DNA of 32,000 nt from Cylindrospermopsis raciborskii Cr2010 (GTDB taxonomy: Bacteria > Cyanobacteriota > Cyanobacteriia > Cyanobacteriales > Nostocaceae). Shown here piece by piece: positions 11,377 through 32,000 of this stretch. The notes beneath the pieces were generated by a model. It was not told the DNA's origin. It ran no database searches and saw nothing but the letters and a program-made list of their open reading frames with translations. The stretch is from positions 2,754,693-2,786,692 of the forward strand of contig NZ_CP065936.1 in the NCBI RefSeq assembly GCF_003367075.2. Direction: 5' to 3'. The translations under genes and the position numbers were made by a program. Every line of letters begins with the position of its first letter. Positions within the stretch are counted from its first letter, which is position 1.

Positions 11377-12120
11377 TTAGGGGATAGCGTTTCTCAATTG
11401 TTTAAGGGTACGACCAATACCAACGAAACTTGCGTCTTGAGACAGACGTTTGAGAGTAGGTGGTTTACTTTCGATAACAATACCGTTGTAAGCAGTAATG
11501 GCAGCACTGAGCTTGTCAATGTTGACGCTAAATGCCGCACCTGCTTGTGCCACTGTATTATTACCTTTCCAATCCTTAGTGCTAACTAACATAGCACCGG
11601 GTGAAGATGCAGTGGAAGGTGAGAATAAACCGTTCAGCGCATTAACCAGTGCGATCGCCAGCTGGGGACTAATACCCGCCGATGTTAAAGCTGCTGTTAT
11701 TCTTGCAGCAGCTTCCGTTACCCCTGGACGTGCAAGCACGAGGGTGACCAAGTCAGTAGTATTAGCGCTTGTGCCAAGCACTTGAACTATGTTAGGAACT
11801 AGCTGGTTTAGGGCTGATTGAACTTCTTGTGTAACCGCTAGAGTTGCACTTTGCCCCTCTCTGGTTACGATTATGCTCTCTGCATTAGGTATGAAGGTGA
11901 CACCGCTTCCACCACTAGAACCTCCTGGAGTTGTTTTCCCGGTTGGTGGTGGTGGTTGTGTTGGTTGTACAGGATCTTGTGGAATTGATGGTGGTGAAGG
12001 CAATACATTTCCACTAGGACCTCCTGGTGTTGTGCTACCTCCCTCACTGGTCAATTGCAAAGATGCTAATAAGAACGGGACTAGACTTAAGGTAAAAATG
12101 AGACTTTTGGGTTTTAACAT
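11377..12120 (-). CDS. Secreted hypothetical protein, signal peptide plus Pro/Gly-rich spacer plus Ala/Leu-rich domain
   Basis: 247 aa. N-terminus MLKPKSLIFTLSLVPFLLASLQL, then PGGPSGNVLPSPPSIPQDPVQPTQPPPPTGK. I recognise no family. It lies 34 nt downstream of the preceding gene on the same strand. Confidence 0.6.
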   Translation of the reverse strand: MLKPKSLIFTLSLVPFLLASLQLTSEGGSTTPGGPSGNVLPSPPSIPQDPVQPTQPPPPTGKTTPGGSSGGSGVTFIPNAESIIVTREGQSATLAVTQEVQSALNQLVPNIVQVLGTSANTTDLVTLVLARPGVTEAAARITAALTSAGISPQLAIALVNALNGLFSPSTASSPGAMLVSTKDWKGNNTVAQAGAAFSVNIDKLSAAITAYNGIVIESKPPTLKRLSQDASFVGIGRTLKQLRNAIP

Positions 12121-12154
12121 GATGATTATCTAATAAACTATAGTACCTATGTAA

Positions 12155-13141
12155 TTACTTAGGTAAAAAATTGAACCCATAGCTGACGCTCAAAGAAAGT
12201 ATGGTGCCACCAGGGCTATTATTAGTGATATCCGCACCCTGGGCTGTAATTGTTAAAGGTAAGGTAGGTATGGGAACATAGGAAGCACCAAGGTTAAAAC
12301 CCACTCCACTCCAACCGAAACCTACACCCAATTGGGGTTGAACCTGCATACCCACACTGCCAAACACACCTGTGCTAGCAAATTCTTGTCTAAACGGACC
12401 ACCCCCAGCGCCTAAGGAAACGGAGATAGGCATTTTATTGACCTCATCATCTGGCTGTAATAGGGAGTAACTAGTAACCACACCGTAAGCTCCAGAAGGG
12501 GTAACACCATCAGTACCATACTGGGCAAAATAGTTCCAACCTGCGGCCACAGCCACCTGGTTGTTACCCTGGGCATAGACAAGACGGTGAACTTTCAGGT
12601 CAAAGCTGCCATTAGCGCCAAACTTTCTAATACTATTGTTGCTGAAACCCAATTCTAAGGCTGCAAATTTGCTAGATTCCCCTATGCCAGCGCCAAGGTT
12701 AATGCCACCATCATACTGACCATCTCTAAGTTTACCGGGGGTAGTACCTGTTATTCCTATAAACACATCACCCGTGTTAGCACCAAAAGCACTTACACCC
12801 GCAAAAGTAAGTCCAGGGGGATAGGTAGGCTTTTGCACTTCCCGTGGTTTAGTTTTTACCAGAGGTTCAATTAGCAATTCTTGCCGAATTCTTCTTACTT
12901 CTTCCGGACTGATATTCTCAGCTTGTGAAATCTGTGGGGGAATGGACCTGGTTTCGTAGCCATTCTGATTGGTGACACCCTCTCCCGCGAATACAAGATC
13001 TGGAGACAGTACCAAAGTTAAAAGGATACTGGGCAAGGTTAGGGAGAGTGCTGAAAAAACTAAGCCCCGCTGATTGTAACCTGGTGTAAAATAAGGCTGT
13101 GTGTTGTTCAAAATATTACTCCTCACTGGACATTCTACCAT
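12155..13141 (-). CDS. Putative outer-membrane beta-barrel protein (unassigned family)
   Basis: 328 aa. Hydrophobic N-terminal segment (LVFSALSLTLPSILLTLVL). The C-terminal ~230 aa is Gly-rich with alternating amphipathic strands (AALELGFS, FDLKVHRLVY, VAVAAGWNYFA, YGVVTSYSLL, LGVGFGWSG, ILSLSVSYGFNF). The start codon is uncertain. Confidence 0.55.
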   Translation of the reverse strand: MVECPVRSNILNNTQPYFTPGYNQRGLVFSALSLTLPSILLTLVLSPDLVFAGEGVTNQNGYETRSIPPQISQAENISPEEVRRIRQELLIEPLVKTKPREVQKPTYPPGLTFAGVSAFGANTGDVFIGITGTTPGKLRDGQYDGGINLGAGIGESSKFAALELGFSNNSIRKFGANGSFDLKVHRLVYAQGNNQVAVAAGWNYFAQYGTDGVTPSGAYGVVTSYSLLQPDDEVNKMPISVSLGAGGGPFRQEFASTGVFGSVGMQVQPQLGVGFGWSGVGFNLGASYVPIPTLPLTITAQGADITNNSPGGTILSLSVSYGFNFLPK

Positions 13142-13221
13142 AGTAAATGTTTGCCCGGCTATATTTTGTTGCTATAAGTAAGTTGGCGTTAAAAGACCAA
13201 ACTATGTAAAGATAAATAGGA

Positions 13222-13327
13222 TAAGTGGGTGAGTGGAATTAAACGCAAGATGAGCGTAGGTTGGGTTGAGGAACGAAACCCAACGCCCCCATGGGCATCC
13301 TACAAATAATTGTGCCTCCCTACTTAA
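13222..13327. repeat. MITE-like element carrying the 29-bp hairpin core GTAGGTTGGGTTGAGGAACGAAACCCAAC (13256-13284)
   Basis: The core is the exact reverse complement of the core present in each 85-bp unit at 23835-24165. The imperfect terminal inverted repeats are TAAGTGGGTGAG (left) and CCTCCCTACTTA (right). The right arm is homologous to 4698-4730. Confidence 0.45.
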
Positions 13328-13422
13328 ACCTTTGCTTAGTGTATCATTAAAGTACCGGTTCATAAAACCCCTAGGTTTCGTATTTTTGTGTAAATTTTTG
13401 TGATGTTGTTATTTACTTGGAG

Positions 13423-14949
13423 TTATGGTTTAGGTGTTGTTCGGGAATTGTCTGTTGCTGGAGAAGGTTTTTTGGTATAACGACGTTCAAAAATTTCTGC
13501 GGATTTCTGATAATCCACCAGGGCGGCTGAAAAATTCCCAGTCAGAGTATATGCTGTAGCACGATTGATGTAGGCGTTAAAATCATCTGGATCAATTATA
13601 ATTGCTAAGGTTGACACCTTGATAGAAGCAGCGTAGTCCTTTAAATAGTTAAACACATCACTCTGAATTGTATAACCATAACTGTTATTAGGGTCTAGAC
13701 GAATAGCTTGCTTGGAAGATTCCAGTGCTGCTTGATACTTACCCAGCTTAATATAAGCCATACCTTGATGGGCATAAGCTATAGAATAACTGGGATTGAG
13801 GCGAATTGCCCGATTGAAATCCTCAAGAGCGGCCTGATCATTTTGTAACCAAATATAAGTCCAACCACGATTTAGATAACCATCCAAATAATTTGGATCC
13901 AAGGCAATTACCTGGTTAAAGTCGGAGAGGGCTTCTTCGTATCTTCTAAGCCAACTGAGGGCATACCCACGCTTGAAATAAGCTTCTGCATATTTGGGGT
14001 CAATTTTGATTGCCTGATCAAAATCATCTAGAGACTCTTTATAATTAAGCTGGTCTAACTTAGTAATACCTCTAGCATAAAAATCTCGTGCAGATTGGGG
14101 AGAATTTAAGCGTTCCTGTGGTACTTCCCCAGTAGCAGTAGTATTCCTTTGAATTGGCAGCTCTTTGACCAAGGGGTTATTGAAGTTCAAAAAAGTATTA
14201 ATGGGAATGCCAGCATTAAATCCCGTTTTCTGTGATACTATTTCTCCCGTTTCTGTTTTACTCTTAGCTGATGTGTCAGCTAACCCGTGAATTCCCACCA
14301 CCCTACCCTTAATATCAAAAACTGGGCCCCCGCTATTACCGGTAAGAGTTTTAGCATCGTAAATTAAACTATAACCGTTGATAGAAGTTCTACCGCGAGA
14401 AAGAACGATCCCTTTGGTAAAAGTAAAGTCCCTAGCTGAGCCAATTTTATTAAATACAGCTGGAAATCCGCCCACAAACACATCGGATGCTTCCGTCATT
14501 TGGTCAGAATCACCTACATTGGCTGTGGGATATTCCTGTGTAGCTACAAAGCTAACTAGGGCCAAATCAGGATCATTTTTAGTTGACTGTAGGACTACAA
14601 TGTCTTTTGATTTAATAGGGTATTCTTTGCCATCATTTGTTCTTACAGAATAGGTAATGTCTTTAGCGCAGAGGATTTTTCCAGGTCTGTCTATAATATC
14701 ACAGACCACGTGATTGGCGGTTAGTACAGAATAACGATTACCTTGTTTGGCAATAATTACTCCTGAACCCCCAGGGGTAACGTCACCCTCCGTATTAATT
14801 TGTACAGATGTCTTCTTAGCAATTTGTGCTATATCTTGGATACTGATAGTATCAGCAGCTATTGAAGTAGTAGATAAAACAGCTGTTGCAGCAGTGATAA
14901 GAGTTGTTACTAGTAGGGAGTTATTTGTTATTCCAAGTTTAAAATTCAT
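13423..14949 (-). CDS. Exported trypsin-fold (S1, DegP-core-like) serine protease fused to six C-terminal TPR repeats
   Basis: 508 aa. Signal-like N-terminus. Catalytic triad contexts TANHVV (His), DLALVSF (Asp) and TGNSGGPVF (Ser). Six 34-aa TPR units (..AEAYFKRGYALSWLRRYEEALSDFNQVIALDPNY..). No PDZ domain. Confidence 0.85.
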   Translation of the reverse strand: MNFKLGITNNSLLVTTLITAATAVLSTTSIAADTISIQDIAQIAKKTSVQINTEGDVTPGGSGVIIAKQGNRYSVLTANHVVCDIIDRPGKILCAKDITYSVRTNDGKEYPIKSKDIVVLQSTKNDPDLALVSFVATQEYPTANVGDSDQMTEASDVFVGGFPAVFNKIGSARDFTFTKGIVLSRGRTSINGYSLIYDAKTLTGNSGGPVFDIKGRVVGIHGLADTSAKSKTETGEIVSQKTGFNAGIPINTFLNFNNPLVKELPIQRNTTATGEVPQERLNSPQSARDFYARGITKLDQLNYKESLDDFDQAIKIDPKYAEAYFKRGYALSWLRRYEEALSDFNQVIALDPNYLDGYLNRGWTYIWLQNDQAALEDFNRAIRLNPSYSIAYAHQGMAYIKLGKYQAALESSKQAIRLDPNNSYGYTIQSDVFNYLKDYAASIKVSTLAIIIDPDDFNAYINRATAYTLTGNFSAALVDYQKSAEIFERRYTKKPSPATDNSRTTPKP

Positions 14950-15761
14950 TGTTTCTGCTCTTGAATGAAATCAACCACAGTAGCAATGGGGATGGCCCAA
15001 CTTAAGGACTCAATTCTACGGTAATCTGCCCTGTTGGGTTTAGTCCCATCAGTAAAAATAAAGGCATTAATTCCTTGAAAGGGATACTTTAATAACCCGC
15101 TGATACCAACAAGTTCCCCCCGTTGGTTTAAAACGGGTCCTCCACTCATACCTTGGGTAAAATCATTGGTGAAACCCACCTTATAGCCACCAACTAGGGT
15201 TTTACGGAGATACATTTTGATCTTACCCGGTTGTAGCTTGAAAGCACCCAGTCCCCAATCCCGGGTTGTTTCTACTTTGGTGATATTGTCACCATTAAAA
15301 ACAAAATGCCACGCTGGAAACCCAGATACATATACCACTTCCCCCTCAGATATATTTGGCGATCGGGAAAATTGCACAAATTGATAGTTTTCCCCACTGG
15401 TAAATTCCACCAGTGCTAGATCTAAAGAATGGGGATTGACTGTTGGTACTTGCTGTGCTTTGTAAATCTTACCATCAGGTGTTAAAACTTCATAACCACT
15501 CTCAGGACTATCCACTACCACGTGATCATTGGTCAAAACCGTGTAGGTTTGTCCTTCACGGTTGATAATCACTCCTGACCCAGATCCAGATTTAGTAAAA
15601 ATTCTTACTGTTACTTTACTGGCAGTCCTGGCAGCGGCAAATTCAAATCCGGGATGGGGTGTGGAAGCTAGCAAGTTGGGTACAGTATGAGGATACACAA
15701 TGGGGGAAAAAATTGTTGTCAGTAATGCCACAGACAATCTAAAGGATATGGGGTAAAACAC
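14946..15761 (-). CDS. Exported trypsin-fold (S1) serine protease
   Basis: 271 aa. Triad contexts TNDHVV, DLALVEF and TQGMSGGPVL. Hydrophobic N-terminus. Its stop overlaps the start of the downstream protease gene by 4 nt (ATGA at 14946-14949). Confidence 0.8.
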   Translation of the reverse strand: MFYPISFRLSVALLTTIFSPIVYPHTVPNLLASTPHPGFEFAAARTASKVTVRIFTKSGSGSGVIINREGQTYTVLTNDHVVVDSPESGYEVLTPDGKIYKAQQVPTVNPHSLDLALVEFTSGENYQFVQFSRSPNISEGEVVYVSGFPAWHFVFNGDNITKVETTRDWGLGAFKLQPGKIKMYLRKTLVGGYKVGFTNDFTQGMSGGPVLNQRGELVGISGLLKYPFQGINAFIFTDGTKPNRADYRRIESLSWAIPIATVVDFIQEQKQ

Positions 15762-15815
15762 AGCGATTCACTTAAAAAAGGAGCAGTTGATTGATTCTTT
15801 TCATTCGGGTAGAAT

Positions 15816-16433
15816 TTACAGTTTGAACCTCCGATCAGAGTTTGCTGGTGGTCTTATTTGGTCGGAATCCTGGGGTTTTAGGTCATTCTGGTCGAGGACC
15901 TCACTTAATTCAAGTTGCAGACGACTGCTTGTTTCTCGGACAACACCTGCGCTGGAACCTTGTTTACTAATTCCCGTCAGTTGGGCCAGAATCTCATTGG
16001 CTTTCTGAGCATTTTCCGGTTTAAGAGTAAACAATAAATTCTTGTCACTACAACCTGTTCCACTAGTTGTAGAGGCTATACAAATAACCGTCTCTTTGTT
16101 AACACGACCTTTAATTAGAGCTACGTTTTTTAGGCGTCCACCATTTTGTTTCACGGCCTGATTAAATCTAGATGTTACCATTCGGCAACGATTTTGAGGA
16201 GTATAGTTATCTCCAAAATATTTAGAACCCGCGTCTGTCCAAGTAATTACGGTAATTGGACTACCACCAGGACGCTGGCCAACGGTAGCCCAATTGCCAT
16301 TGCCTTGGGAAACACATGTAAACTTGGTGCCATTGTAGGCTTCAGTAGGGGGCTTAGCTTGTACTCCAGTCTGAATCAAAGTTCCTGCTAGGGTTAAACT
16401 AGCAACTAGAACTGTCGTGGATAGTTTCATCAT
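15816..16433 (-). CDS. COP23 (circadian oscillating protein) family paralog 5, exported
   Basis: 205 aa. Signal peptide, then the core YNGTKFTCVSQGNGNWATVGQRPGG..ITWT..YFG..YTPQNRC..VTSRFNQAV..VICIA..GC..LLFTLKPENA with 4 conserved Cys. The family assignment is from memory of COP23 sequences. Confidence 0.75.
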   Translation of the reverse strand: MMKLSTTVLVASLTLAGTLIQTGVQAKPPTEAYNGTKFTCVSQGNGNWATVGQRPGGSPITVITWTDAGSKYFGDNYTPQNRCRMVTSRFNQAVKQNGGRLKNVALIKGRVNKETVICIASTTSGTGCSDKNLLFTLKPENAQKANEILAQLTGISKQGSSAGVVRETSSRLQLELSEVLDQNDLKPQDSDQIRPPANSDRRFKL

Positions 16434-16463
16434 GCATCATTCCCTTTTCCCATTATAATTACT

Positions 16464-17159
16464 TTACAAACCAGGTTGATTACGTCGGTTATTTTGAACT
16501 TTTGGCCTTTTAACAGGTGAAGAGGATGAGCGTCGAGCTGCTAGCACATCACTCAGTTTGACTGTAACCCGTTGGCGACTACTTCTTGTTTCGGTAATCA
16601 CACCTCCTTCCGATCCCTTCTTGCTAATCTCCAGGAGTTGAGATAAAACCTTATCAGGGTTTTTGGCATTTTCCGGTTTCAGGGTAAATAGGGTATTTTT
16701 ATCTTGACAACCATTATCTCGGTCGGAAATTACACAAATAACAACCTGACCATTAACATTGCCACTGGTTAATAAAACATCTTGAAGCCTACCACCACTC
16801 TCTTGTACTGCTGTGTTGAACTTGCGGGTGACAATTTGACACCGGTTTTCGGGGGCAAATTGGCTACCAAAATATTTGGAAGCTGATTGAGTCCAAATAA
16901 TCACAGGTATTGGTTGGCCACCAGGGCGCTGACCAACGGTAGCCCACTTGCCATTACCCTGGGATACACAGGCAAATTTCGTCCCATTATAGCTTTCATC
17001 ACCAGTCGGTTCTGAGTCTGATGGGTTGTCGGATGCAGGAATAGTGGGGGGGTTAGGGGGGTTATCTCCACTTTCCACTGGCACAGCTCTCACCATGCTA
17101 GGATGCCAACCGGCTGATACAGCTATAAAAGTAGCTAAAACTGTTGCTGAAAATTTCAT
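16464..17159 (-). CDS. COP23 family paralog 4, exported, with a Pro/Asp/Ser-rich N-terminal spacer
   Basis: 231 aa. Same core as paralog 5 (YNGTKFACVSQGNGKWATVGQRPGGQPIPVIIWT..NRCQIVTRKFNTAV..VVICVIS..GC..LFTLKPENA). Basic tail ..VKRPKVQNNRRNQPGL. Confidence 0.75.
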   Translation of the reverse strand: MKFSATVLATFIAVSAGWHPSMVRAVPVESGDNPPNPPTIPASDNPSDSEPTGDESYNGTKFACVSQGNGKWATVGQRPGGQPIPVIIWTQSASKYFGSQFAPENRCQIVTRKFNTAVQESGGRLQDVLLTSGNVNGQVVICVISDRDNGCQDKNTLFTLKPENAKNPDKVLSQLLEISKKGSEGGVITETRSSRQRVTVKLSDVLAARRSSSSPVKRPKVQNNRRNQPGL

Positions 17160-17210
17160 AATATCCTGTTATTTTTTACCAAAGAAGTGTGAAAAGTTCT
17201 GAGTTTTCTA

Positions 17211-17870
17211 TCACAGACCACCTGTATTGGGTCTGGGAGTTTTGCGGGTTCTGGGTGTTTGTTGAGGCAAGCGCTTGGCTGCTTTGGAGATAACTTCACC
17301 TAGGTTTACTGTGGCACGAGAACGACCTCTTGTTTCAGTAATAACCCCTGCACTGGAACCTCTAATACTAATTTGAGTCAGGGTTTCTAAAACCCTATTA
17401 GGGTCTTTGGCATTTTCGGGTTTCAGGGCAAACAGGGTATTGTTACCATCACAACCTCCTGTGTCCTTTAAAGAAAGTGCGCAAATAACAGTTTTGTCAC
17501 CGACTTCTCCCCAGGTTAAAACTACGTCGTAAAGATTGCCAGCGCTATCTTCTACGGCTTGGTTGAGATTGGCTGTGACGATTTCACAACGGCTCTTGGG
17601 ATTATAGTTTTCGCCAAAGGACTGTGCTCCTTTTTTTGTCCACACAATTATGGGAATTGGTCTACCACCAGGGCGCTGTCCAACTGTGGCCCAGTTACCA
17701 CCTTGAGCTACGCAAGCAAATCTCGTCCCATTGTATTGACTGGGATCGCTCGGATCAAAGAATGCGTCATCAGATGATTGGGCTTTTAATTGACCATGTC
17801 CTAAACCCAAAATGCTTGATAGGGTTAGGGTGGCTACTAAACACGTGGTTGAGAATTTGCTACTCATCAT
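17211..17870 (-). CDS. COP23 family paralog 3, exported
   Basis: 219 aa. Roughly 90% identical by eye to paralogs 1 and 2. AAGGAGG lies upstream of the ATG. Tail ..KRLPQQTPRTRKTPRPNTGGL. Confidence 0.78.
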   Translation of the reverse strand: MMSSKFSTTCLVATLTLSSILGLGHGQLKAQSSDDAFFDPSDPSQYNGTRFACVAQGGNWATVGQRPGGRPIPIIVWTKKGAQSFGENYNPKSRCEIVTANLNQAVEDSAGNLYDVVLTWGEVGDKTVICALSLKDTGGCDGNNTLFALKPENAKDPNRVLETLTQISIRGSSAGVITETRGRSRATVNLGEVISKAAKRLPQQTPRTRKTPRPNTGGL

Positions 17871-17961
17871 ATTTCCATACCTCCTTATTTTTTGCTGATG
17901 GCGCGTGGAAAGTTTTGGTTATTCCCCACGCGTTCGACACTTTTGCAATATTTGCCAGTCC

Positions 17962-18621
17962 TTAAACAGAACCTTTAGTTGATCTGGGAGTTTTGCGGGT
18001 TCTGGGTGTTTGTTGAGGCAATCGCTTGGCTGCTTGCGATACAACCCTACCTAAGTTTACACTTAAACGACCTCTTGGTTTAGTTTCACTAACAACCCCT
18101 GCACTAGAGCCTTTAATACTAATTTGAGTCAGGGTTTCTAAAACCTTATTAGGGTCTTTGGCATTTTCAGGTTTCAGAGCAAACAGAGTATTGCTACCAT
18201 CACAACCTCCTTCGTCTTTTAAAGAAAGTGCGCAAATCACAGTTTTGCCATCATCAAGTTTACCCCAGGTTAGGACTACGTCGTAAAGATTGCCAGCGCT
18301 ATCTTCTACCGCTTGGTTGAGATTGGCTGTAACGATTTCACAACGGCTCTTAGGATTATAATTTTCGCCAAAGGACTGTGCTCCTTGTTTTGTCCACACA
18401 ATTATGGGAATTGGTCTACCACCAGGGCGCTGTCCAACTGTGGCCCAGTTACTACCTTGGGCTACACAGGTAAATTTAGTTCCGTTGTATTGACTGCGAT
18501 CGCTCGGATCAAAGAATGAGTCATCTGATGATTGGGCTTTTAATTGACCATGTCCTAAACCCAAAATGCCTGATAGGGCTAGGGTACCTACTAAAAACGC
18601 GGCTGAGAATTTGCTGTTCAT
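17962..18621 (-). CDS. COP23 family paralog 2, exported
   Basis: 219 aa. Near-identical core to paralogs 1 and 3. Tail ..KRLPQQTPRTRKTPRSTKGSV. Confidence 0.78.
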   Translation of the reverse strand: MNSKFSAAFLVGTLALSGILGLGHGQLKAQSSDDSFFDPSDRSQYNGTKFTCVAQGSNWATVGQRPGGRPIPIIVWTKQGAQSFGENYNPKSRCEIVTANLNQAVEDSAGNLYDVVLTWGKLDDGKTVICALSLKDEGGCDGSNTLFALKPENAKDPNKVLETLTQISIKGSSAGVVSETKPRGRLSVNLGRVVSQAAKRLPQQTPRTRKTPRSTKGSV

Positions 18622-18676
18622 AATTTCCCCTTGATCTAGTGTTGGTTTTAATGGTGAGATCTTGCTGGAGCAAAAT

Positions 18677-19894
18677 CTACAGGTTACCTGGTTTGGTGGG
18701 ACGCGGGCCAGTTCTTAAAGCTCTGAGTGTGCCGGTAGTAGGATTGTACTCATAAGCCTTAGCGGTTAAGTCTGGGTGGGGACTGACACAATATTGTTTA
18801 TCACCTATAAAGATGCCAATTACTGGAGTAGAGCTGCAGGAAACAGCTGTTAATTGCCATTTTCTTAACAGGGCTAAATTCGGGTCGTTGGATGATACTG
18901 GTTTCCTGTTCCCTGTAATTTGGATTCCATCTATTTCTACTTCACCTAAAATCCCTGAGTCATCGATAGTATTGCCTAATGCGGAAATGGCAACACCAGT
19001 TGTGGCGGCGTTATAAATGTTGTAACGACCATTGTTGACGATGACATTGCCACCTGGATTACTACGAGTACCTAGATCGGGGGAAGAATTAAGAGTGATG
19101 ACTATGCCATCCCGTTCGTTATCCTTAACCACATTGCTGCGTAACAAGGGTTGAGCTGAATCGGTGATAACTATTCCGTCTCTATTATTGGTGATCTGAT
19201 TTTTGGTCAAGACTGGTTTGGAATCGTCATTAATGCTTAATCCAAAGCCACTCTTCTCAAATACATTATTGCTGATTTTCCCCTTGCTGGATTTGGTTAT
19301 GGAAATACCATTGCCATTGTTTGCTGTAAATTGGTTGTTCTCAATGGTAGGATCCCCACCAGCTGTGACAAATATCCCCTCTCGCAAACTCTGAGCAAAT
19401 GTGCTATTTTTAATAACGGGGTTAGTGGACTCTACCCATACACCTGTTCCTCGGTCATTTCTGTTGGTCACGGTTACACCATTAATTGTGCTGTCTTGTT
19501 CCGCCAGAATAGTTACATTTTGTCTGGCAAAACTACGACTGTTGTGGTCACCACCACCGGAAATAACTACGGTCTTTCCTTTAGTCGATTCATCACCACG
19601 CAAGGTGATTCCTTGTTTAAGTTTGATGGGGAAGGACTCATTAGTGTAACTACCGGGAGCTAACTGAATTATGGTTCCCGGTTGGGCTTGCTCTAAGGCA
19701 AAGGTGATGGTTTTATAGGGATTGGTGACGGAGTTGCCAGTGCTGACAATGTTGACACCACTAATGGGATCCACATAGATAACTGGCGCCACTGAAGGCA
19801 ATTGAGCGCCCACGGGAAGTGTAACTGACAAAGATCCGCAGATGGACGCCATAACTACGGAAGATTTTAGATGTGATTTTGATATAATGTTCAT
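18677..19894 (-). CDS. Exported DUF1565-type right-handed parallel beta-helix repeat protein
   Basis: 405 aa. Signal-like N-terminus. DUF1565-like start (NPYKTITFALEQAQPGTIIQLAPGSY). Repeated PbH1-type turns (IENNQFTANNGNGISIT, ISNNVFEKSGFGLSIN, LTKNQITNNRDGIVIT, LRSNVVKDNERDGIVIT). Small 2-Cys C-terminal domain and tail RTGPRPTKPGNL. Confidence 0.8.
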   Translation of the reverse strand: MNIISKSHLKSSVVMASICGSLSVTLPVGAQLPSVAPVIYVDPISGVNIVSTGNSVTNPYKTITFALEQAQPGTIIQLAPGSYTNESFPIKLKQGITLRGDESTKGKTVVISGGGDHNSRSFARQNVTILAEQDSTINGVTVTNRNDRGTGVWVESTNPVIKNSTFAQSLREGIFVTAGGDPTIENNQFTANNGNGISITKSSKGKISNNVFEKSGFGLSINDDSKPVLTKNQITNNRDGIVITDSAQPLLRSNVVKDNERDGIVITLNSSPDLGTRSNPGGNVIVNNGRYNIYNAATTGVAISALGNTIDDSGILGEVEIDGIQITGNRKPVSSNDPNLALLRKWQLTAVSCSSTPVIGIFIGDKQYCVSPHPDLTAKAYEYNPTTGTLRALRTGPRPTKPGNL

Positions 19895-19930
19895 AATGTT
19901 CCTAAATGACTCCCTAATTTTGTTGTGTAC

Positions 19931-19954
19931 ATCCTAGAGAAAATTGACTAGGGT
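19931..19954 (-). promoter_or_regulatory. Inverted repeat ATCCTAG-N10-CTAGGgT in the leader of the beta-helix gene
   Basis: 7-bp arms with a 10-bp spacer, about 40 nt upstream of ATG 19894. It is homologous in sequence and position to 20708-20731. Confidence 0.45.
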
Positions 19955-20021
19955 GGAATTGTGAAAGTTCCCGATGCTGATAACTTCCAATACAGATTGA
20001 CTTCTCCTGGCTGTTACCAAC

Positions 20022-20681
20022 TCACAGAGTACCTTTAGTGGGTCTATTTACGGGAGTTGTGCGAGTTTTGGGTGTTTCTTGGGGCAATCGCTTGGCTGCT
20101 TGTGAGACAACTTTACCCAGGTTTACACTTAAACGACTTGTTGTTTCACGAACAGTCCCTGCACTAGAACCTTTAATGCTAATTTGAGTCAGGGTTTCTA
20201 AAACCTTATTAGGGTCTTTGGCATTTTCAGGTTTCAGAGCGAACAGGGTATTGTTACCATCACAACCTCCTTCATCCTTTAAAGAAAGTGCGCAAATAAC
20301 AGTCTTGCCATCGTCAAGTTTACCCCAGGTTAGGACTACGTCGTAAAGCTTGCCAGCACTGTCTTCTACCGCTTGGTTGAGGTTGGCTGTGACGATTTCA
20401 CAACGGCTCTTGGGATTATAATTTTCGCCAAAGGACTGTGCTCCTTTTTTTGTCCACATAATTATGGGAATTGGTCTACCACCAGGGCGCTGTCCAACGG
20501 TGGACCAGTCGCTACCTTGGGCTACACAGGTAAATTTAGTTCCGTTGTATTGACTGGGATCGCTCGGATCAAAAAATGCGTCATCTGATGATTGGGCTTT
20601 TAATTGACCATGTCCTAAACCCAAAATGCCTGATAGGGCTAGGGTTGCTACTAAAACTGTGGACGGGAATTTGCCGTTCAT
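20022..20681 (-). CDS. COP23 family paralog 1, exported
   Basis: 219 aa. AGGAG lies 8 nt upstream of the ATG. Core as in paralogs 2 and 3. Tail ..KRLPQETPKTRTTPVNRPTKGTL. Confidence 0.78.
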   Translation of the reverse strand: MNGKFPSTVLVATLALSGILGLGHGQLKAQSSDDAFFDPSDPSQYNGTKFTCVAQGSDWSTVGQRPGGRPIPIIMWTKKGAQSFGENYNPKSRCEIVTANLNQAVEDSAGKLYDVVLTWGKLDDGKTVICALSLKDEGGCDGNNTLFALKPENAKDPNKVLETLTQISIKGSSAGTVRETTSRLSVNLGKVVSQAAKRLPQETPKTRTTPVNRPTKGTL

Positions 20682-20731: not shown

Positions 20732-20935
20732 TTAAGTATGAAAATGCCTAAAGCCGATAATTTTTACTGACCCAACTGCACATTATTATATACTCGTGGT
20801 CTAACCTTCACTACAAAGGCACCTCTTATATTCACCGAACCTGCTCAGGGAGATGACAAGGACTTATCACCTACAAACAAAAAGTCTTTTAACTAGCATA
20901 TAATATTGTGCTATGCGTGAATTTACTCCGTCAAT

Positions 20936-20968
20936 AGTAAAAAGTAGAAAATGCTAAATTTTCTACTT
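20936..20968 (-). terminator. Intrinsic terminator downstream of the DnaJ-like gene
   Basis: 9-11 bp perfect stem GTAGAAAAT (20944-20952) / ATTTTCTAC (20958-20966) with a 5-nt loop. On the minus strand it is followed by TTTTT (A-run 20939-20943). It lies about 75 nt after the stop at 21042. Confidence 0.65.
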
Positions 20969-23834: not shown

Positions 23835-24165
23835 CTACATTAAGGTGAAGGTTTTTAAAAACAGGAGTATTACAACTACCTCTAAAGTGGGTTTGTTGGG
23901 TTTCGTTCCTCAACCCAACCTACATTAAGGTGAAGGTTTTTAAAAACAGGAGTATTATAACTACCTCTAAAGTGGGTTTGTTGGGTTTCGTTCCTCAACC
24001 CAACCTACATTAAGGTGAAGGTTTTTAAAAACAGGAGTATTACAACTACCTCTAAAGTGGGTTTGTTGGGTTTCGTTCCTCAACCCAACCTACGTTAAGG
24101 TGAAGGTTTTTAAAAACAGGAGTATTACAACTACCTCTATAGGAGTATTGGAACTACCTCTAAAG
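23835..24165 (+). repeat. 85-bp tandem repeat array (3 full copies plus a 50-bp partial copy plus a 23-bp sub-duplication)
   Basis: Unit starts CTACAT at 23835, 23920 and 24005, and CTACGT at 24090, so the period is exactly 85 bp. Copies differ by single substitutions. Each unit holds the palindrome GTTTTTAAAAAC, the 22-mer AGGAGTATTACAACTACCTCTA and the hairpin GTTGGGTT-tcgttcctc-AACCCAAC. The 22-mer is re-duplicated at 24141-24162. Confidence 0.9.
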
Positions 24166-24209
24166 TTATGTGTTATGCTGCTGAAAATCTTCACTTTTTA
24201 CCTGGATTT

Positions 24210-28256: not shown

Positions 28257-28395
28257 GATTCCTTCAGTGAATTCCCAATTTTCAATATTCAGTCATTTTT
28301 TTTAAAAAACAGTGTAAATACTGTACATAAAATCCCCGTCAAGAGATAACAATCTATATTAGATACGTTAGATATATTAAGTTTATCCAATTAAG

Positions 28396-28417
28396 CCAAT
28401 TACTCAAAAGTAATTGG
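28396..28417 (+). promoter_or_regulatory. Perfect 8-bp inverted repeat CCAATTAC-N6-GTAATTGG just upstream of the hpsA ribosome-binding site
   Basis: Seen directly in the sequence. GGGAGGGGG follows at 28422-28430 and the ATG at 28435. Its function (operator or 5'-UTR hairpin) is unknown. Confidence 0.3.
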
Positions 28418-28434
28418 GTTAGGGAGGGGGACTC

Positions 28435-31400
28435 ATGGTTATGACTAAAAAGTGTTATTCTTACCGGATCATCACCAAAAAATATGCCAAGGTGGTTGTT
28501 CAGTTTTTGCGTATTTTACGAAGAACTACAAAAAACCTAATAAGATTGTTTTTAAAAATTATTTTGAAATCTCAAAGGAGACGAAACTTAAAAAATCAAG
28601 GCTTTGTGTTGCCCACAACAACCATGGTTATCCTGGTGGTAATGTTACTAACAATGGCAATTGTATTTCGCTCCTTTGAAAGAGCTAAACATGCCCATAA
28701 TACCAAGATTAATCAAACGGTAATCAATGCAGCGACTCCTGCAATAGATAGGGGAAAAGCCAAGATTAACCAAATGTTGGCAGATCCTAGAATTACCCAA
28801 TTTTTACCTTCAGATCAAGACTTATATAATAACCTAATTAATTACCTAGACGAATATACCTTTGGTGATGAGACTAATCTGACCCTCAACTTGCAAAACT
28901 ACGAACCCTTAAAAACCGCTTGGAAATTTCCCGTAGACACTAATAACAATGGTAAATTTGACAGCTATACCCTTTATGGTATTTATTTTAAAAATCCTCC
29001 TCAAAGCAATCAGCAATACGTGCGAGCTAGAAACACTTTAGAAGCTAGATCTTTACCTATCAACCCAATCGATTTTAATTCTCGATGTCAGGATTTTACT
29101 TCAATAAGTAAAAACTTGGAAAAATTAGTAGATACAAATGGGTGGTTAATAATTGGTGGACAAATGAGAAAAGCCTTTTTTGTTTACACTGCTACAGTTC
29201 CCATTACTAGCCAGATGACCATACCCACACAAAATCAAATTAACTATGAAATATCCCCAGAAAATAAAGCATTTTATGCTTTAGAATATAAGCAAGAGAG
29301 AATTCAAATTCCATCTAGCAACAACGCCATTGTTTATGAAGATGACTTACAAATTACTGGCAATGAAGACTTCAGAATTAATGGCAGAATTTTTACCAAT
29401 AGTAACTTGTTAACCGGTTCAGCTTCCCGATCAATTAGACTCTATCAAATTAGCAGTCAGAGTTCTTGCTTTTACGAACCGGAAAACTCTAAAATTATTG
29501 TAGGTGGGAATTTAGCAGCAGGTGGATTTACAGATAATAAAGATCTATCCACAGCAACCACAGTGGATTTATTTAAGGATAAGGGCGTAAATCCACAAAC
29601 AATAGCAGGATACAACCCCAGAATTACAGACCATAAATCGGTTACCAACTCACCACAGAATATAGCCTATAATAGTTTAGCTTATATGAAAAGAATCAAT
29701 AAGTTAGTTGATAGGCAAATGGCAAATTATTTGACCACCGATCCTCAAGAAGTAAAACAGGGAATTATCAAAAAACAAAAGCAATTAGGAACAGCATATA
29801 CAACTGATCAATATGACCAAATTCGCCGTAAAGAATTGGAACTCTATTTTCAAAAACGTACCCGCCGCGTACCCTTTCAAGAAGTACCCTTTGGTAGTGA
29901 ACAGAGTGATGTAAATAAGATCGATAATCCCTTACAGAGTACTGGTGATACCCTGCGTCCCATAGATCCATGGATTTATCCATTTGCTAGCGATGGAATC
30001 ACGGGAACTAGTCATAGTCAACTATCATTAAACATCAGTGGTAATTTACTCAAACCCAGTGCAACAGAACCCATGGACCAACTACAAAAACAACTAGGGG
30101 GAGTAGAGCAGTATTTAGGAGACCGGGTTATAGTTGGTCATAATCTACCCCAAATGTGGTGGAATTATCCACAAAATCGCTTTTTTAGCACCGATATTAA
30201 CCACACTCAAAACCTCAAAGATATTAATTGGGATCTAGGTAATGAACCAAGAACTCGTTATACCACCCTGCATAACTTAGCTGGTTTAGCTGCAATAGAA
30301 AGGGATGGAGATTGGGAATATGCAGCAGCACAAGTACCTGAAAATCCACAACAGGAAAATTTCATTGGCGGTTTGCGCGTGGTGACTGGTTCTGGAATAT
30401 ATTTACCCAGAAATCATAATGCTTCTAGCACTAACTTTCTAGATGTTTCAACAAAAATTTGGTCCGATATCTTACCCATACCACAAACATCTACAGAATA
30501 TGTAAACACCACCATTAACCCCTACTGGATGTATGATTCATCCCTGGGGTTTACTTTGCCCAAACTATCTGAAATGGACATTACAACCCCCTATTTAAAA
30601 ATGCGAGCTACGGTGGTTTACCACTATAAATCTAGCAATTATCATCAGAACAATCCCACCCCCATAGCTTGTATTAGTAGTTTTTATCTTCCTACAAACA
30701 GCAACACAGCGACAAATATGATCACATTACCTAATGCGGTAGGAATAGAAAAATCCTCTCATGGACTATCTAACAATGGTATCGTTTATCCACCTCCCAC
30801 TAGAAATGTTAATGCTTATGCAAATTTACTTACATATCAAGCCCAGTTGCAATACCCTAATGGACGTTGGGTAAATGAACCTTTGAGAAATGCTTTAGCA
30901 AAAAATAACTATACCTTATCAGAAAAATCCGCTATAGATACTGCCTTATGTGCTTTACAAATCATGGATGGTAGTATAAGTCCTCTGAGTAACCCTCCCA
31001 TTCCCCATGGTGCAATTAAGGAAATAGCTTTTTTAGATTCCAGAGAAATCAGAGCTAATCAAACCTCAAATCAGGTGGATAGTAATTTACCATACGATTT
31101 ACCCCTGAGAGATAGACAACCGTTAGAAATTCGTGCTACGGTCATAGACTTAAATCAGCTACGCACAACCAGAATATCAACCGATGAGTATTTATTACCA
31201 AATAGTGGAATTATTTATGCGACTCGGGATGATGCTCTACCAGATATAAGTGGAGGAATATCTGCTAAATCAGAAAGTTCTGTGGATTATAAACTTGATC
31301 CTACTCGTCGTCCTAATGGGATCCTAATTACCACTAGTGATAGTTCACCAACTAAACTTTTCCGTAGTACAAGTAATACATTTAGAAGAGAGGAAAAGGG

Positions 31401-32000
31401 CTTGATTTTGGCTTCCAACTTACCGGTTTATATTAAAGGTGATTTCAATAGACATACCCAAGAAGAATTTACCAGTACCTTAGCAGCTGATTGGAGTAAT
31501 TTTTACAATCGTAGTCAAATAAATCATCAATTTGCTTGTCGTCCTAGTGATTCTAAACTACCCAACTGTACTGTGGGTGATGAGTGGCGAAATGCTGCCA
31601 TATTAGCAGATTCCATTACCTTACTTTCTCAGAACTTTCGATTTGGTTTTCGCAATGAAGGAGACTATGATTGGAATAATTATATTGGTGATACTGCATC
31701 CTTCAATAATCGTCCTACGAATTTTGAATATAACACTTATGCTCCCACAATAACCCAGAATTATGATATCAATGGCATACCGAATATCGATCTGGATCCC
31801 GTAACCAATGGTATACAAGGTAGTTCCTATTTTCACAACTTCGTTACCCCCATAGTTAAACAGATACCAGCTAGAGAATTTCTGTTAGAAGTTTGTCTAG
31901 TTTCTAATACTGATATATGTAACAGTGACCCAACACAATGGGTAATTAGTAGATTTTCTAGAAGTGAATACAATGGACAACCAGAAAGTAATATCGAAGG
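28435..32000 (+). CDS. hpsA: Hormogonium polysaccharide secretion protein HpsA (N-terminal >1188 aa; 3' end outside window)
   Basis: I read every codon from ATG 28435 to the window end and found no stop. In-frame stops lie at 28411 and 28420. There is a strong SD. The gene is absent from the ORF track because it is open-ended. The N-terminus has a basic leader then a pseudopilin-like hydrophobic segment (RRRNLKNQGFVLPTTTMVILVVMLLTMAIVFRSFERA), followed by a very large Asn/Thr/Pro-rich extracellular-type sequence (..IYATRDDALPD.., ..ILASNLPVYIKGDFN..). The family call is from memory of Nostoc HpsA. Confidence 0.7.
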   Translation, partial: MVMTKKCYSYRIITKKYAKVVVQFLRILRRTTKNLIRLFLKIILKSQRRRNLKNQGFVLPTTTMVILVVMLLTMAIVFRSFERAKHAHNTKINQTVINAATPAIDRGKAKINQMLADPRITQFLPSDQDLYNNLINYLDEYTFGDETNLTLNLQNYEPLKTAWKFPVDTNNNGKFDSYTLYGIYFKNPPQSNQQYVRARNTLEARSLPINPIDFNSRCQDFTSISKNLEKLVDTNGWLIIGGQMRKAFFVYTATVPITSQMTIPTQNQINYEISPENKAFYALEYKQERIQIPSSNNAIVYEDDLQITGNEDFRINGRIFTNSNLLTGSASRSIRLYQISSQSSCFYEPENSKIIVGGNLAAGGFTDNKDLSTATTVDLFKDKGVNPQTIAGYNPRITDHKSVTNSPQNIAYNSLAYMKRINKLVDRQMANYLTTDPQEVKQGIIKKQKQLGTAYTTDQYDQIRRKELELYFQKRTRRVPFQEVPFGSEQSDVNKIDNPLQSTGDTLRPIDPWIYPFASDGITGTSHSQLSLNISGNLLKPSATEPMDQLQKQLGGVEQYLGDRVIVGHNLPQMWWNYPQNRFFSTDINHTQNLKDINWDLGNEPRTRYTTLHNLAGLAAIERDGDWEYAAAQVPENPQQENFIGGLRVVTGSGIYLPRNHNASSTNFLDVSTKIWSDILPIPQTSTEYVNTTINPYWMYDSSLGFTLPKLSEMDITTPYLKMRATVVYHYKSSNYHQNNPTPIACISSFYLPTNSNTATNMITLPNAVGIEKSSHGLSNNGIVYPPPTRNVNAYANLLTYQAQLQYPNGRWVNEPLRNALAKNNYTLSEKSAIDTALCALQIMDGSISPLSNPPIPHGAIKEIAFLDSREIRANQTSNQVDSNLPYDLPLRDRQPLEIRATVIDLNQLRTTRISTDEYLLPNSGIIYATRDDALPDISGGISAKSESSVDYKLDPTRRPNGILITTSDSSPTKLFRSTSNTFRREEKGLILASNLPVYIKGDFNRHTQEEFTSTLAADWSNFYNRSQINHQFACRPSDSKLPNCTVGDEWRNAAILADSITLLSQNFRFGFRNEGDYDWNNYIGDTASFNNRPTNFEYNTYAPTITQNYDINGIPNIDLDPVTNGIQGSSYFHNFVTPIVKQIPAREFLLEVCLVSNTDICNSDPTQWVISRFSRSEYNGQPESNIE

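What the first reader, a model, noticed from the sequence alone, without database searches (positions are those of the whole stretch)
13423..20681. Island of eight exported proteins: five tandem COP23-family paralogs, a DUF1565/beta-helix protein and two trypsin-fold proteases
Seen in sequence: eight consecutive minus-strand genes run from 20681 to 13423. The gaps between them are 127, 55, 91, 51, 30 and 54 nt, then a 4-nt ATGA overlap. Every product begins with a signal-peptide-like hydrophobic segment. Five products (219, 219, 219, 231 and 205 aa) share the core YNGTKF-C-V.QG..W.TVGQRPGG.PI..I.WT...FG....P..RC..VT...N.AV..G..L....G...VIC....GC...LF.LKPENA, with four invariant Cys (probably two disulfides).

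Established knowledge: this is the COP23 family, named after a circadian-oscillating peripheral membrane protein of Cyanothece. No biochemical function is known for it.

Inference: a multi-paralog family of small disulfide-rich exported proteins sits beside a carbohydrate-binding/lyase-type beta-helix protein and two translationally coupled proteases. That arrangement looks like a dedicated extracytoplasmic module, either a substrate family plus its processing enzymes or an envelope/sheath-remodelling set. To my knowledge it has not been characterised.
Basis: partly seen in the sequence, partly recalled or inferred. Interest (0 to 1): 0.72.

Follow-up and report, generated by a model that had tools for sequence, protein, structure and literature searches.

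The report
COP23 genes with dedicated protease pair
A row of exported cyanobacterial proteins of unknown function (COP23) proves to be linked, across distant cyanobacteria, to its own pair of serine proteases and to partner proteins that share a previously undescribed small domain, which gives a first concrete lead to what COP23 does.

Summary
Eight minus-strand genes (20681-13423) encode five COP23 (PF14218) paralogs, a DUF1565 beta-helix protein, and two S1 proteases, one with TPR repeats. All have signal-peptide-like N-termini.

The "dedicated module" reading is supported by comparative evidence:
- The order COP23 -> short S1 protease -> S1-TPR protease recurs in Nostocales, Pleurocapsales and Oscillatoriales with unrelated flanking genes. 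It holds in 16 of 22 informative non-redundant loci.
- The two proteases are ancient paralogs, and all 39 distinct copies keep the His-Asp-Ser triad.
- In another lineage DUF1565 and COP23 are fused into one protein, and that gene is followed by two S1 genes.

New points:
- An unannotated ~65-residue two-Cys C-terminal domain ("CTD") is shared by the beta-helix protein, many S1-TPR proteases, and small proteins just upstream of COP23.
- The family has a conserved extreme C-terminus (Gly + Ile/Phe/Leu/Trp) that co-varies among module members.
- Two further unknown exported genes (11377-13141) probably belong to the island.

No paper found links COP23 to proteases. The mechanism is inferred: a periplasmic protease pair dedicated to processing or turning over COP23, with TPR and CTD as recognition modules. 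Function remains untested.

The parts
20022..20681 (-). COP23 paralog A (219 aa), upstream of the beta-helix gene; ends ..KGTL
   Evidence: Pfam COP23 E 1.8e-24. It is 91% identical in DNA to paralog B. An orthologue sits at the same position in R. brookii L001.
18677..19894 (-). Exported DUF1565 / right-handed beta-helix protein (405 aa) carrying the C-terminal CTD; ends ..PGNL
   Evidence: Pfam DUF1565 E 1.5e-36, Beta_helix, NosD. The AF2 beta-helix core has pLDDT ~90. Foldseek matches are Pel9A, AlgE4, alginate epimerase/lyase and polygalacturonase.
18701..18910 (-). CTD: an unannotated ~65-70 residue domain with two conserved Cys (residues ~329-398 of the beta-helix protein); motif D.N.ALL..W.L...C....V.I..GK.YC..P..L...Y.Y
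   Evidence: Cross-hits between my own HMMs. Alignments A5 and A6 show 13 invariant columns among 12 copies. There is no Pfam model. The domain is also found on S1-TPR proteases and on small proteins upstream of COP23 in other loci.
17962..18621 (-). COP23 paralog B (219 aa); ends ..KGSV
   Evidence: Pfam COP23 E 2e-24.
17211..17870 (-). COP23 paralog C (219 aa); ends ..TGGL
   Evidence: Pfam COP23 E 4.8e-26.
16464..17159 (-). COP23 paralog D (231 aa); ends ..QPGL
   Evidence: Pfam COP23 E 1.6e-32. AF2 model: core residues 60-170 at pLDDT 85-93. No PDB fold match.
15816..16433 (-). COP23 paralog E (205 aa); ends ..RFKL
   Evidence: Pfam COP23 E 8.1e-31.
14946..15761 (-). Short S1 (Trypsin_2) serine protease, 271 aa (260-261 aa in public annotation), no PDZ or TPR
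   Evidence: Pfam Trypsin_2 E 4.4e-23. H/D/S triad intact. It belongs to the 'short S1' clade conserved across orders. The closest solved relatives are HtrA/DegP/DegQ/HhoA protease domains, E 1e-6.
13423..14949 (-). S1 (Trypsin_2) serine protease with C-terminal TPR array, 508 aa; its start overlaps the stop of the previous gene (ATGA)
   Evidence: Pfam Trypsin_2 E 9.9e-22 and TPR_1 E 2.1e-36. Triad intact. It falls in the S1-TPR clade. Overlap read. Unlike many orthologues it lacks a terminal CTD.
12155..13141 (-). Unknown exported protein (328 aa; called as 318 aa in public assemblies), Gly/aromatic-rich conserved C-terminal half; probable additional island member
   Evidence: No Pfam, NCBIfam or PDB hit. 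Homologues, paired with the next gene, sit directly upstream of DUF1565 in L012, L015 and L018-L023, and downstream of S1-TPR in L009 and L053-55.
11377..12120 (-). Unknown exported protein (247 aa): signal peptide, Pro/Thr/Gly-rich linker, conserved C-terminal domain; probable additional island member
   Evidence: No family hit. It always pairs with the 328-aa family. A strong terminator-like hairpin follows it at 11365-11340.
20905..20966 (-). Likely 5' boundary of the island: a hairpin plus U-run (20944-20966), probably ending the upstream DnaJ-like gene's transcript, then a sigma-70-like TTGACG-N18-CACAAT (20934-20905)
   Evidence: Promoter-like match (not above chance for the region as a whole). 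The segment is conserved with R. brookii. The hairpin folds at -10.8 kcal/mol, z -2.55. Inference only.

Best explanation
The island is one instance of a conserved cyanobacterial extracytoplasmic module.

Composition:
- Core: one to five COP23 proteins plus an ancient pair of HtrA-like S1 serine proteases. One protease is short. The other carries a TPR array and, in many lineages, a small CTD domain.
- Accessory members vary by lineage and are marked by the same CTD. Here the accessory is a polysaccharide-enzyme-like beta-helix protein. Two further unknown exported proteins probably belong as well.

Proposed working, with each step marked:
1. All products are exported by Sec. This is shown only as signal-peptide-like N-termini and conserved Cys. 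The detection of Alr2313 in the Anabaena exoproteome adds support.
2. The two proteases work together as a non-redundant pair (inferred from ancient paralogy with both triads kept).
3. They act specifically on or with COP23, either maturing it or degrading it. That would set the amount of this abundant envelope-associated protein (inferred from conserved adjacency).
4. Recognition uses the TPR array and/or the CTD. The conserved Gly-hydrophobic C-terminus of COP23 and the CTD proteins is a candidate ligand. This would parallel PDZ domains of DegS/DegP reading C-terminal hydrophobic residues (speculative).
5. The beta-helix enzyme is brought to the same site through its CTD. In other lineages it is fused to COP23 outright (inferred from the fusion).
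For: - Domain content.
- Same gene order with unrelated flanks in Sphaerospermopsis, Dolichospermum, Stanieria, two Phormidium lineages and a metagenomic lineage only 35% identical.
- Tally: 16 of 22 informative non-redundant loci have S1 next to COP23, and no S1 hit occurs elsewhere in 660 kb.
- Triad intact in 39 of 39 distinct proteases.
- Identity is 45-46% within each protease type across lineages, but 28% between the two types in one locus.
- DUF1565-COP23 fusions fall in two separate 50% clusters, have no internal signal peptide, and one is seen in two samples and followed by two Trypsin_2 genes.
- The CTD is shared by the beta-helix protein, S1-TPR proteases and proteins upstream of COP23.
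- C-terminal tail: 77% of 117 diverse COP23 proteins end in I/F/L/W against ~25% of background, and the penultimate residue is Gly in 41% against 10%. The tail type is shared within loci.
- Literature: Alr2313 was found in the exoproteome (PMC4390845). A synthesis/degradation rhythm of COP23 in strain RF-1 is cited in 10.64898/2026.04.23.720389.
Against: - No experimental or structural evidence that the proteases touch COP23.
- Six of 22 informative COP23 locus clusters have no adjacent protease (L031, L032, L044, L045/47, L050, L058), so COP23 can function without a neighbouring protease gene.
- The tail motif is missing in some protease-linked loci (L033, L034, L036, L056) and present in loci without a nearby TPR protease, so a TPR-tail pairing is not supported by co-occurrence.
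- The window's own S1-TPR lacks the CTD.
- The only COP23-S1-TPR fusion (P0263) is a singleton from a 2x-coverage contig. It keeps an internal signal-peptide-like segment and is probably a read-through artefact.
- Loci were found through COP23 similarity, and many are related Nostocales, so the counts are not phylogenetically independent.
- Operon structure is not shown; the promoter and terminator scans are at chance level.
Confidence: 0.45

Rival explanations
1. COP23 is not the substrate. It is a scaffold, anchor or regulator (for example an inhibitor or activator) for the enzymes. CTD-bearing enzymes would dock on envelope-bound COP23, much as dockerin-bearing enzymes dock on cohesin scaffolds, and the proteases would act on other envelope proteins.
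For: - A CTD protein directly upstream of COP23 is kept even where no protease is adjacent (L041/42, L045, L047/48).
- In the DUF1565-COP23 fusions COP23 occupies the place of the CTD.
- COP23 also occurs as the outer domain of a membrane-spanning GUN4 protein (P0145).
- COP23 copy number expands from 1 to 5 while the proteases stay at 1-2.
- COP23 is reported as highly expressed in diazoplasts, which suits a structural protein.
Against: - No fold or sequence resemblance to any known inhibitor, cohesin or anchor.
- CTD-COP23 binding is untested, and the CTD could not be modelled (pLDDT below 35).
- Many protease-linked loci show no detectable CTD (L029, L033, L034, L036, L037).
Confidence: 0.25
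2. This is an envelope or sheath polysaccharide-remodelling set. The beta-helix enzyme would be the effector, the proteases would mature it or other exo-enzymes, and COP23 proteins would be structural components of the layer being remodelled.
For: - The beta-helix model matches pectate lyase Pel9A, mannuronan C5-epimerases, alginate lyases and polygalacturonase.
- In one Dolichospermum locus rhamnose-nucleotide genes lie just upstream.
- An SLH-OprB porin follows the proteases in L056/57.
Against: - The beta-helix gene is absent from most non-Nostocales loci, which still keep COP23 + S1 + S1-TPR, so it cannot be the central effector.
- No glycosyltransferase or export genes are consistently nearby.
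- Catalytic residues of the beta-helix were not assessed.
Confidence: 0.15
3. The genes are neighbours only because they share regulation or an export route. The products would not interact functionally. Alternatively the module serves nitrogen fixation specifically, as the COP23 literature suggests.
For: - COP23 transcripts or protein are diel- or nitrogen-regulated in UCYN-A, diazoplasts and Anabaena.
- COP23 gene clusters are missing from the candidate non-diazotrophic Trichodesmium species.
Against: - The gene order is conserved across three orders with unrelated flanks, and a true gene fusion exists; both argue for interaction.
- R. brookii D9 has no nitrogenase genes (PMC9435057) but keeps the cluster.
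- No NtcA-type GTAN8TAC site lies in the cluster's promoter regions.
Confidence: 0.1

Closest known systems
COP23 of Cyanothece/Synechococcus RF-1 (Pfam PF14218)
   Same: - All five paralogs match the family model well above the cutoff.
- They share the four conserved Cys and an N-terminal signal peptide.
   Different: - Here there are five tandem copies in a filamentous Cylindrospermopsis/Raphidiopsis genome.
- Rhythmic expression and membrane association were not tested.
- The family is not restricted to diazotrophs: R. brookii D9 keeps the cluster.
- The protease linkage and the terminal Gly-hydrophobic motif are not part of any published description I could find.
HtrA/DegP/DegQ/DegS periplasmic S1C proteases
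   Same: - Trypsin_2 fold with a His-Asp-Ser triad.
- Exported.
- These are the closest solved relatives by sequence (E 1e-6).
- DegS and DegP read C-terminal hydrophobic residues of client proteins, which is a possible parallel to the conserved Gly-hydrophobic termini here.
   Different: - No PDZ domain; one paralog has TPR repeats (and elsewhere the CTD) instead.
- Scores are far below every NCBIfam HtrA-type cutoff (58 against 416 bits).
- The proteases occur as a fixed pair next to a dedicated partner family.
Magnetosome MamE / MamO / MamA set
   Same: Two trypsin-like proteases plus a TPR component working in one compartment. Sub-threshold NCBIfam matches to MamO, MamE and MamA.
   Different: - Scores are far below cutoffs (40 against 800 bits; 67 against 200 bits).
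- No magnetosome genes are present.
- The TPR array is fused to a protease here.
- This is a resemblance of domain content only.
Right-handed beta-helix enzymes acting on polysaccharides (Pel9A pectate lyase, AlgE4/AlgG epimerases, alginate lyases) and NosD/DUF1565 proteins
   Same: Pfam DUF1565, Beta_helix and NosD hits. The predicted fold matches these enzymes.
   Different: - Only 11-17% identity to them, and no PDB hit by sequence.
- Catalytic residues were not assessed.
- It carries a C-terminal CTD not seen in those enzymes.
Cohesin-dockerin enzyme docking (cellulosome)
   Same: A small shared C-terminal module sits on different enzymes, next to a multi-copy partner family. This is a functional analogy only.
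   Different: - No sequence or fold relation: CTD against COP23 gives hhalign probability 0.1%, and COP23 has no PDB fold match.
- Binding is untested.

Membership tests
COP23 (PF14218) | Match to the Pfam model above the gathering score | tested here: met
   86.4-112.6 bits against a cutoff of 27, for all five ORFs.
COP23 (PF14218) | Conserved four-Cys core and N-terminal signal peptide | tested here: met
   C52/C94/C130/C140 are invariant in the five paralogs. They are invariant or at least 90% conserved in 117 diverse members. Hydrophobic N-termini are shown.
COP23 (PF14218) | Circadian oscillation and peripheral membrane location (the properties the family is named for) | not testable with these tools
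   Needs expression and fractionation data. The only literature support is for other species.
HtrA/DegP family (S1C with PDZ) | Trypsin-like domain with His-Asp-Ser triad | tested here: met
   Trypsin_2 E 4e-23 and 1e-21. The triad is present in both window proteases and in 39 of 39 homologues.
HtrA/DegP family (S1C with PDZ) | One or two C-terminal PDZ domains | tested here: not met
   No PDZ hit in either protein. The 508-aa protein has TPR repeats instead.
HtrA/DegP family (S1C with PDZ) | Score above NCBIfam family cutoffs (degP_htrA_DO, HhoA_HhoB_HtrA and others) | tested here: not met
   58 bits against 416; 43 bits against 450.
DUF1565 / right-handed beta-helix (CASH-type) | Pfam DUF1565 and Beta_helix matches, and a parallel beta-helix fold | tested here: met
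   126.5 bits against 20.3, and 85.6 against 25.9. The AF2 core has pLDDT ~90 with regular short strands. Foldseek probability is 1.0 to beta-helix enzymes.
DUF1565 / right-handed beta-helix (CASH-type) | Catalytic residues of a lyase, epimerase or hydrolase | not tested
   The alignment to solved enzymes is only 11-17% identical, and no active-site mapping was done.
Magnetosome MamE/MamO/MamA | Score above NCBIfam equivalog cutoffs | tested here: not met
   MamO 40 bits against 800; MamA 67 against 200; MamE 19 against 800.
Conserved COP23-S1-S1/TPR module (defined here) | COP23 gene followed on the same strand by a short S1 and an S1-TPR protease of the two conserved clades | tested here: met
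   The window has the same order as L002, L004, L006, L008, L012, L015, L025, L029, L033, L037 and L051. Both window proteases fall in the respective clades.
Conserved COP23-S1-S1/TPR module (defined here) | Co-transcription of, and physical interaction between, the members | not testable with these tools
   No transcript data and no multimer modelling were available.

The most novel reading that the evidence does not exclude
COP23, the CTD and the Gly-hydrophobic C-terminus would together form an unrecognised periplasmic recognition system in cyanobacteria. CTD-bearing enzymes and a TPR-armed protease pair would dock on, and time the destruction of, an abundant envelope protein. This would be the machinery behind the synthesis/degradation rhythm of COP23 reported for strain RF-1, and behind COP23's strong diel and nitrogen-dependent regulation in marine diazotrophs and diazoplasts.
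Probability: 0.2. Interest if true: 0.8.

Novelty: new variant of a known kind. Interest (0 to 1): 0.62.

Why it matters
- **An open question.** COP23 has had no known function since it was described in 1996. It is reported as the transcript with the largest day-night change in UCYN-A. [quoted passage not shown]
- **A testable lead.** A large part of the family is linked across cyanobacterial orders to its own pair of catalytically intact serine proteases. That turns "unknown function" into a concrete question: do these proteases process or degrade COP23, and do they set its rhythm?
- **New handles.** The work adds an unannotated small domain and a conserved C-terminal motif. It also shows that the family is not confined to nitrogen fixers.
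- **Context.** The organism group (Cylindrospermopsis/Raphidiopsis) forms toxic blooms, so envelope biology there has practical interest.

Tried and rejected
- **Database-wide search for the CTD.** No hit reached significance for so short a domain, so there is no census of CTD architectures beyond the fetched loci.
- **CTD against Pfam and PDB.** Only sub-threshold chemokine (IL8-family) matches, E 0.001-0.07. I treat these as chance or convergent.
- **CTD against COP23 profile comparison.** Unrelated, probability 0.1%.
- **COP23 model against the PDB.** No match, best E 0.15 and TM below 0.2. The COP23 profile against PDB sequences found nothing.
- **Structure job with locus-derived orthologues.** The substitute 4-row alignment modelled the beta-helix well but not the CTD.
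- **NtcA-type sites.** None lies in a promoter region of the island, and the window count is below chance.
- **Promoter and terminator scans.** At chance level.
- **Rfam.** No RNA family in the window.
- **COP23-S1-TPR fusion P0263.** Rejected as probable read-through on a 2x-coverage contig.
- **Idea that the 1.42-Mb contig carrying P0269 was UCYN-A.** Rejected, because phycobilisome genes lie nearby.
- **TPR presence against tail presence across loci.** No clean correlation.

Full report
**What is there**

The window holds eight consecutive minus-strand ORFs from 20681 to 13423. Pfam assigns five of them to COP23 (E 1.8e-24 to 1.6e-32). One is assigned to DUF1565/Beta_helix/NosD, one to Trypsin_2, and one to Trypsin_2 plus a TPR array.

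The five COP23 paralogs share four invariant Cys. These Cys are invariant or nearly so in 117 diverse members of the family. Three of the paralogs are recent duplicates, 88-91% identical in DNA. The two proteases are 35% identical to each other over their BLAST-aligned region, and both have the His-Asp-Ser triad. All eight N-termini look like signal peptides by a hydrophobicity heuristic.

The source is a Cylindrospermopsis/Raphidiopsis genome. The locus is 94% identical in protein to R. brookii D9, and identical proteins occur in three public assemblies. Base composition shows no sign of a foreign island.

**Is the arrangement more than chance?**

I fetched COP23 loci from named genomes and from metagenomes, and annotated them with HMMs built here.

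- *Named genomes.* The order COP23 -> short S1 protease (~270-310 aa) -> S1-TPR protease (~450-650 aa) recurs on one strand. It is found in Sphaerospermopsis, Stanieria, Phormidium pseudopriestleyi, Phormidium sp. CCY1219 and a lineage only 35% identical. The flanking genes are unrelated. Dolichospermum has the same order but only the S1-TPR protease.
- *Non-redundant tally.* After collapsing 60 loci into 25 clusters, 22 are informative downstream. Of these, 15 have an S1 gene immediately downstream on the same strand, one has it on the opposite strand, and six have none.
- *Background.* All 69 S1 hits in 660 kb of fetched DNA lie inside COP23 clusters.
- *Solitary members.* The COP23 genes without a protease are mostly the more divergent ones (27-44% identity). 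So the family has a protease-linked branch and solitary members.

**The proteases**

A distance tree separates all short S1 proteins from all S1-TPR protease domains. Identity is 45-46% within a type across lineages, but only 28% between the two types in the same locus. All 39 distinct sequences keep the triad. The duplication is therefore old and both copies have been kept in working order, which argues for non-redundant roles.

By sequence they are distant relatives of HtrA/DegP/DegQ/HhoA protease domains. They lack PDZ domains and fall far below every NCBIfam HtrA cutoff.

**Gene fusions**

An exhaustive profile search found 723 COP23 clusters at 50% identity. Four of the 150 best representatives have informative multi-domain architectures.

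- *P0153 and P0236* have a DUF1565 beta-helix followed by COP23, with no internal signal peptide. P0236 occurs in two samples, one assembled at 32x coverage. Its gene is followed at once by two Trypsin_2 genes and an SLH-OprB porin. This supports the link between beta-helix, COP23 and the protease pair in a separate lineage.
- *P0263* (COP23-S1-TPR) I discount. It is a singleton on a 2x-coverage contig and keeps a signal-peptide-like segment between the two parts.
- *P0145* has COP23 outside, a membrane helix, a coiled coil and a GUN4 domain. No contig was on record for it.

**A shared, unannotated domain**

My DUF1565 model cross-hit the ends of S1-TPR proteins, and my TPR-tail model cross-hit the beta-helix proteins. 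The cause is a ~65-residue module. In the window it covers residues ~329-398 of the beta-helix protein (18701-18910). It has two conserved Cys, a Trp and a GKxYC motif.

It occurs in four settings:
- at the end of the Nostocales beta-helix proteins;
- at the end of many S1-TPR proteases, in one or two copies;
- in two to three copies in a 338-358-aa protein just upstream of COP23 in two Phormidium lineages;
- in 141-263-aa proteins (in the four whose sequences I read, a signal peptide then a Lys/Glu/Ala-rich repetitive segment that looks coiled-coil) just upstream of COP23 in four lineages, two of which have no adjacent protease and one an S1 gene on the opposite strand.

Pfam has no model for it. 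The only PDB hits are sub-threshold chemokine matches, which I regard as chance. It is unrelated to COP23. The window's own S1-TPR lacks it.

**A conserved extreme C-terminus**

Among 117 diverse COP23 proteins, 77% end in I, F, L or W, against about 25% of background ORFs. The penultimate residue is Gly in 41%, against 10%. The motif follows a variable low-complexity linker, and no membrane helix follows it.

The CTD proteins upstream of COP23 end the same way in nearly every lineage. In some lineages both proteases do too. The terminal residue type is shared within a locus: G-L with G-L, G-F with G-F, and M-F with V-F/M-F. Relatedness of the loci could inflate this pattern. The motif is also absent from some protease-linked loci. 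It therefore remains unexplained.

**Other structural information**

The COP23 core is predicted with confidence (pLDDT 85-93) as a mixed alpha/beta domain. It has no match among solved structures. The beta-helix core is also confident. It resembles Pel9A, mannuronan epimerases, alginate lyases and polygalacturonase, all of which act on acidic polysaccharides.

**Extent of the island**

The two next minus-strand ORFs (12155-13141 and 11377-12120) have signal-peptide-like N-termini and no family assignment. Homologues of both, as an adjacent pair, lie directly upstream of the DUF1565 gene in Dolichospermum/Aphanizomenon-type loci. They lie downstream of S1-TPR in the Cylindrospermopsis loci. 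A pair that keeps company with the module while changing position is probably part of it, which gives ten genes (11377-20681).

Upstream of the first COP23 gene, a hairpin with a U-run and then a sigma-70-like site are conserved with R. brookii. A strong terminator-like hairpin follows the last gene. These boundaries are inference.

**Literature**

- COP23's function is described as unresolved.
- Reports cover strong diel transcription in UCYN-A (PMC6315102).
- They also cover high expression and ammonium repression in diazoplasts, a synthesis/degradation rhythm in RF-1, and induction of Alr2313 after nitrogen step-down (10.64898/2026.04.23.720389).
- COP23 gene clusters are reported missing from the candidate non-diazotrophic Trichodesmium species.
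- Alr2313 was detected in the Anabaena exoproteome (PMC4390845).
- No paper found mentions a protease, DUF1565 or TPR link.
- The statement that COP23 occurs only in nitrogen fixers does not hold. R. brookii D9 has no nitrogenase genes (PMC9435057) yet keeps the cluster, though two of its genes are split.
- No NtcA-type site lies in the island's promoter regions.

**How it most likely works**

Shown here:
- the domain content;
- the conserved adjacency;
- the ancient, intact protease pair;
- the beta-helix-COP23 fusion;
- the shared CTD;
- the terminal motif.

Inferred: the products are exported, and the protease pair is dedicated to COP23, for maturation or turnover. TPR and/or CTD would serve as recognition modules, and the beta-helix enzyme would be recruited to the same place. 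The parallel with DegS/DegP, where a peptide-binding domain reads hydrophobic C-termini, is suggestive but untested.

The main rival is that COP23 is a scaffold or regulator for CTD-bearing enzymes rather than a substrate. The CTD-COP23 pairing in protease-free loci and the position of COP23 in the fusions favour that view. I cannot separate the two with the tools available.

**Verdict**

The parts belong to known families, but the module as a unit, the CTD and the terminal motif appear undescribed. I rate it a new variant of a known kind: a periplasmic HtrA-like protease system with a dedicated partner family. Interest is moderate to high for cyanobacterial envelope and diazotroph biology.

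Noticed in passing
window 11377-13141 (minus strand): Two unannotated exported proteins (328 and 247 aa) with no family or PDB match. Homologues occur as an adjacent pair directly upstream of the DUF1565 gene in Dolichospermum/Aphanizomenon-type loci (two copies in L012) and downstream of S1-TPR here. They are probably part of the island.
   Followed up: partly
window 23835-24139: Tandem repeat of an 85-bp unit, 3.6 copies, 98% identical, in the intergenic region between the GlgC-like gene and the ORF starting at 24168. The unit contains a GTTGGGTT...AACCCAAC inverted repeat.
   Followed up: no
window 28257-32000: About 3.7 kb with no ORF longer than 75 aa, no tRNA, no Rfam match even at a permissive threshold, and no internal repeats. 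GC is 35-39%. Its nature is unknown.
   Followed up: partly
window 20905-20966 (minus strand): A hairpin plus U-run (GTAGAAAAT-N5-ATTTTCTAC, z -2.55) followed by TTGACG-N18-CACAAT, conserved with R. brookii D9. This is likely the terminator of the DnaJ-like gene and the promoter of the island.
   Followed up: partly
L001 13502-14277 and 15877-17398 (R. brookii D9): The orthologues of COP23 paralog D and of the S1-TPR protease are each split into two ORFs. This is either early decay in a strain without nitrogenase genes or sequencing errors in an old draft assembly.
   Followed up: partly
L056 3725-5419 / L057 4028-5722: An SLH-OprB porin gene directly follows the two S1 protease genes in the lineage with the DUF1565-COP23 fusion.
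   Followed up: no
P0145 (621 aa, no contig on record): Architecture: signal/anchor, COP23, membrane helix, long coiled coil, GUN4. COP23 would be the outer domain of a membrane-spanning protein with a cytoplasmic tetrapyrrole-binding-type domain. It is a singleton cluster.
   Followed up: partly
L058 3957-11001; L004 13403-15553: Ser/Thr protein kinase genes lie beside COP23 loci. A double-COP23 protein (P0269) has one directly downstream and another two genes upstream. A kinase gene also lies on the opposite strand right after S1-TPR in Stanieria.
   Followed up: no
window 14946-15761: The start codon is uncertain. The longest ORF starts at GTG (271 aa), whereas public assemblies-261 aa. This changes the stated 54-nt gap to about 84 nt.
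   Followed up: partly
CTD alignment A6 (window 18701-18910 and homologues): Local similarity of the CTD core (V-V-x-I-x-x-x-G-K-x-Y-C-x-x-P-x-x-W-L) to the beta2-beta3/Cys region of CC chemokines. Pfam IL8 gives E down to 9e-4 in 6 of 18 members, and PDB chemokines give E 0.01-0.07. It is sub-threshold and probably chance or convergence.
   Followed up: partly
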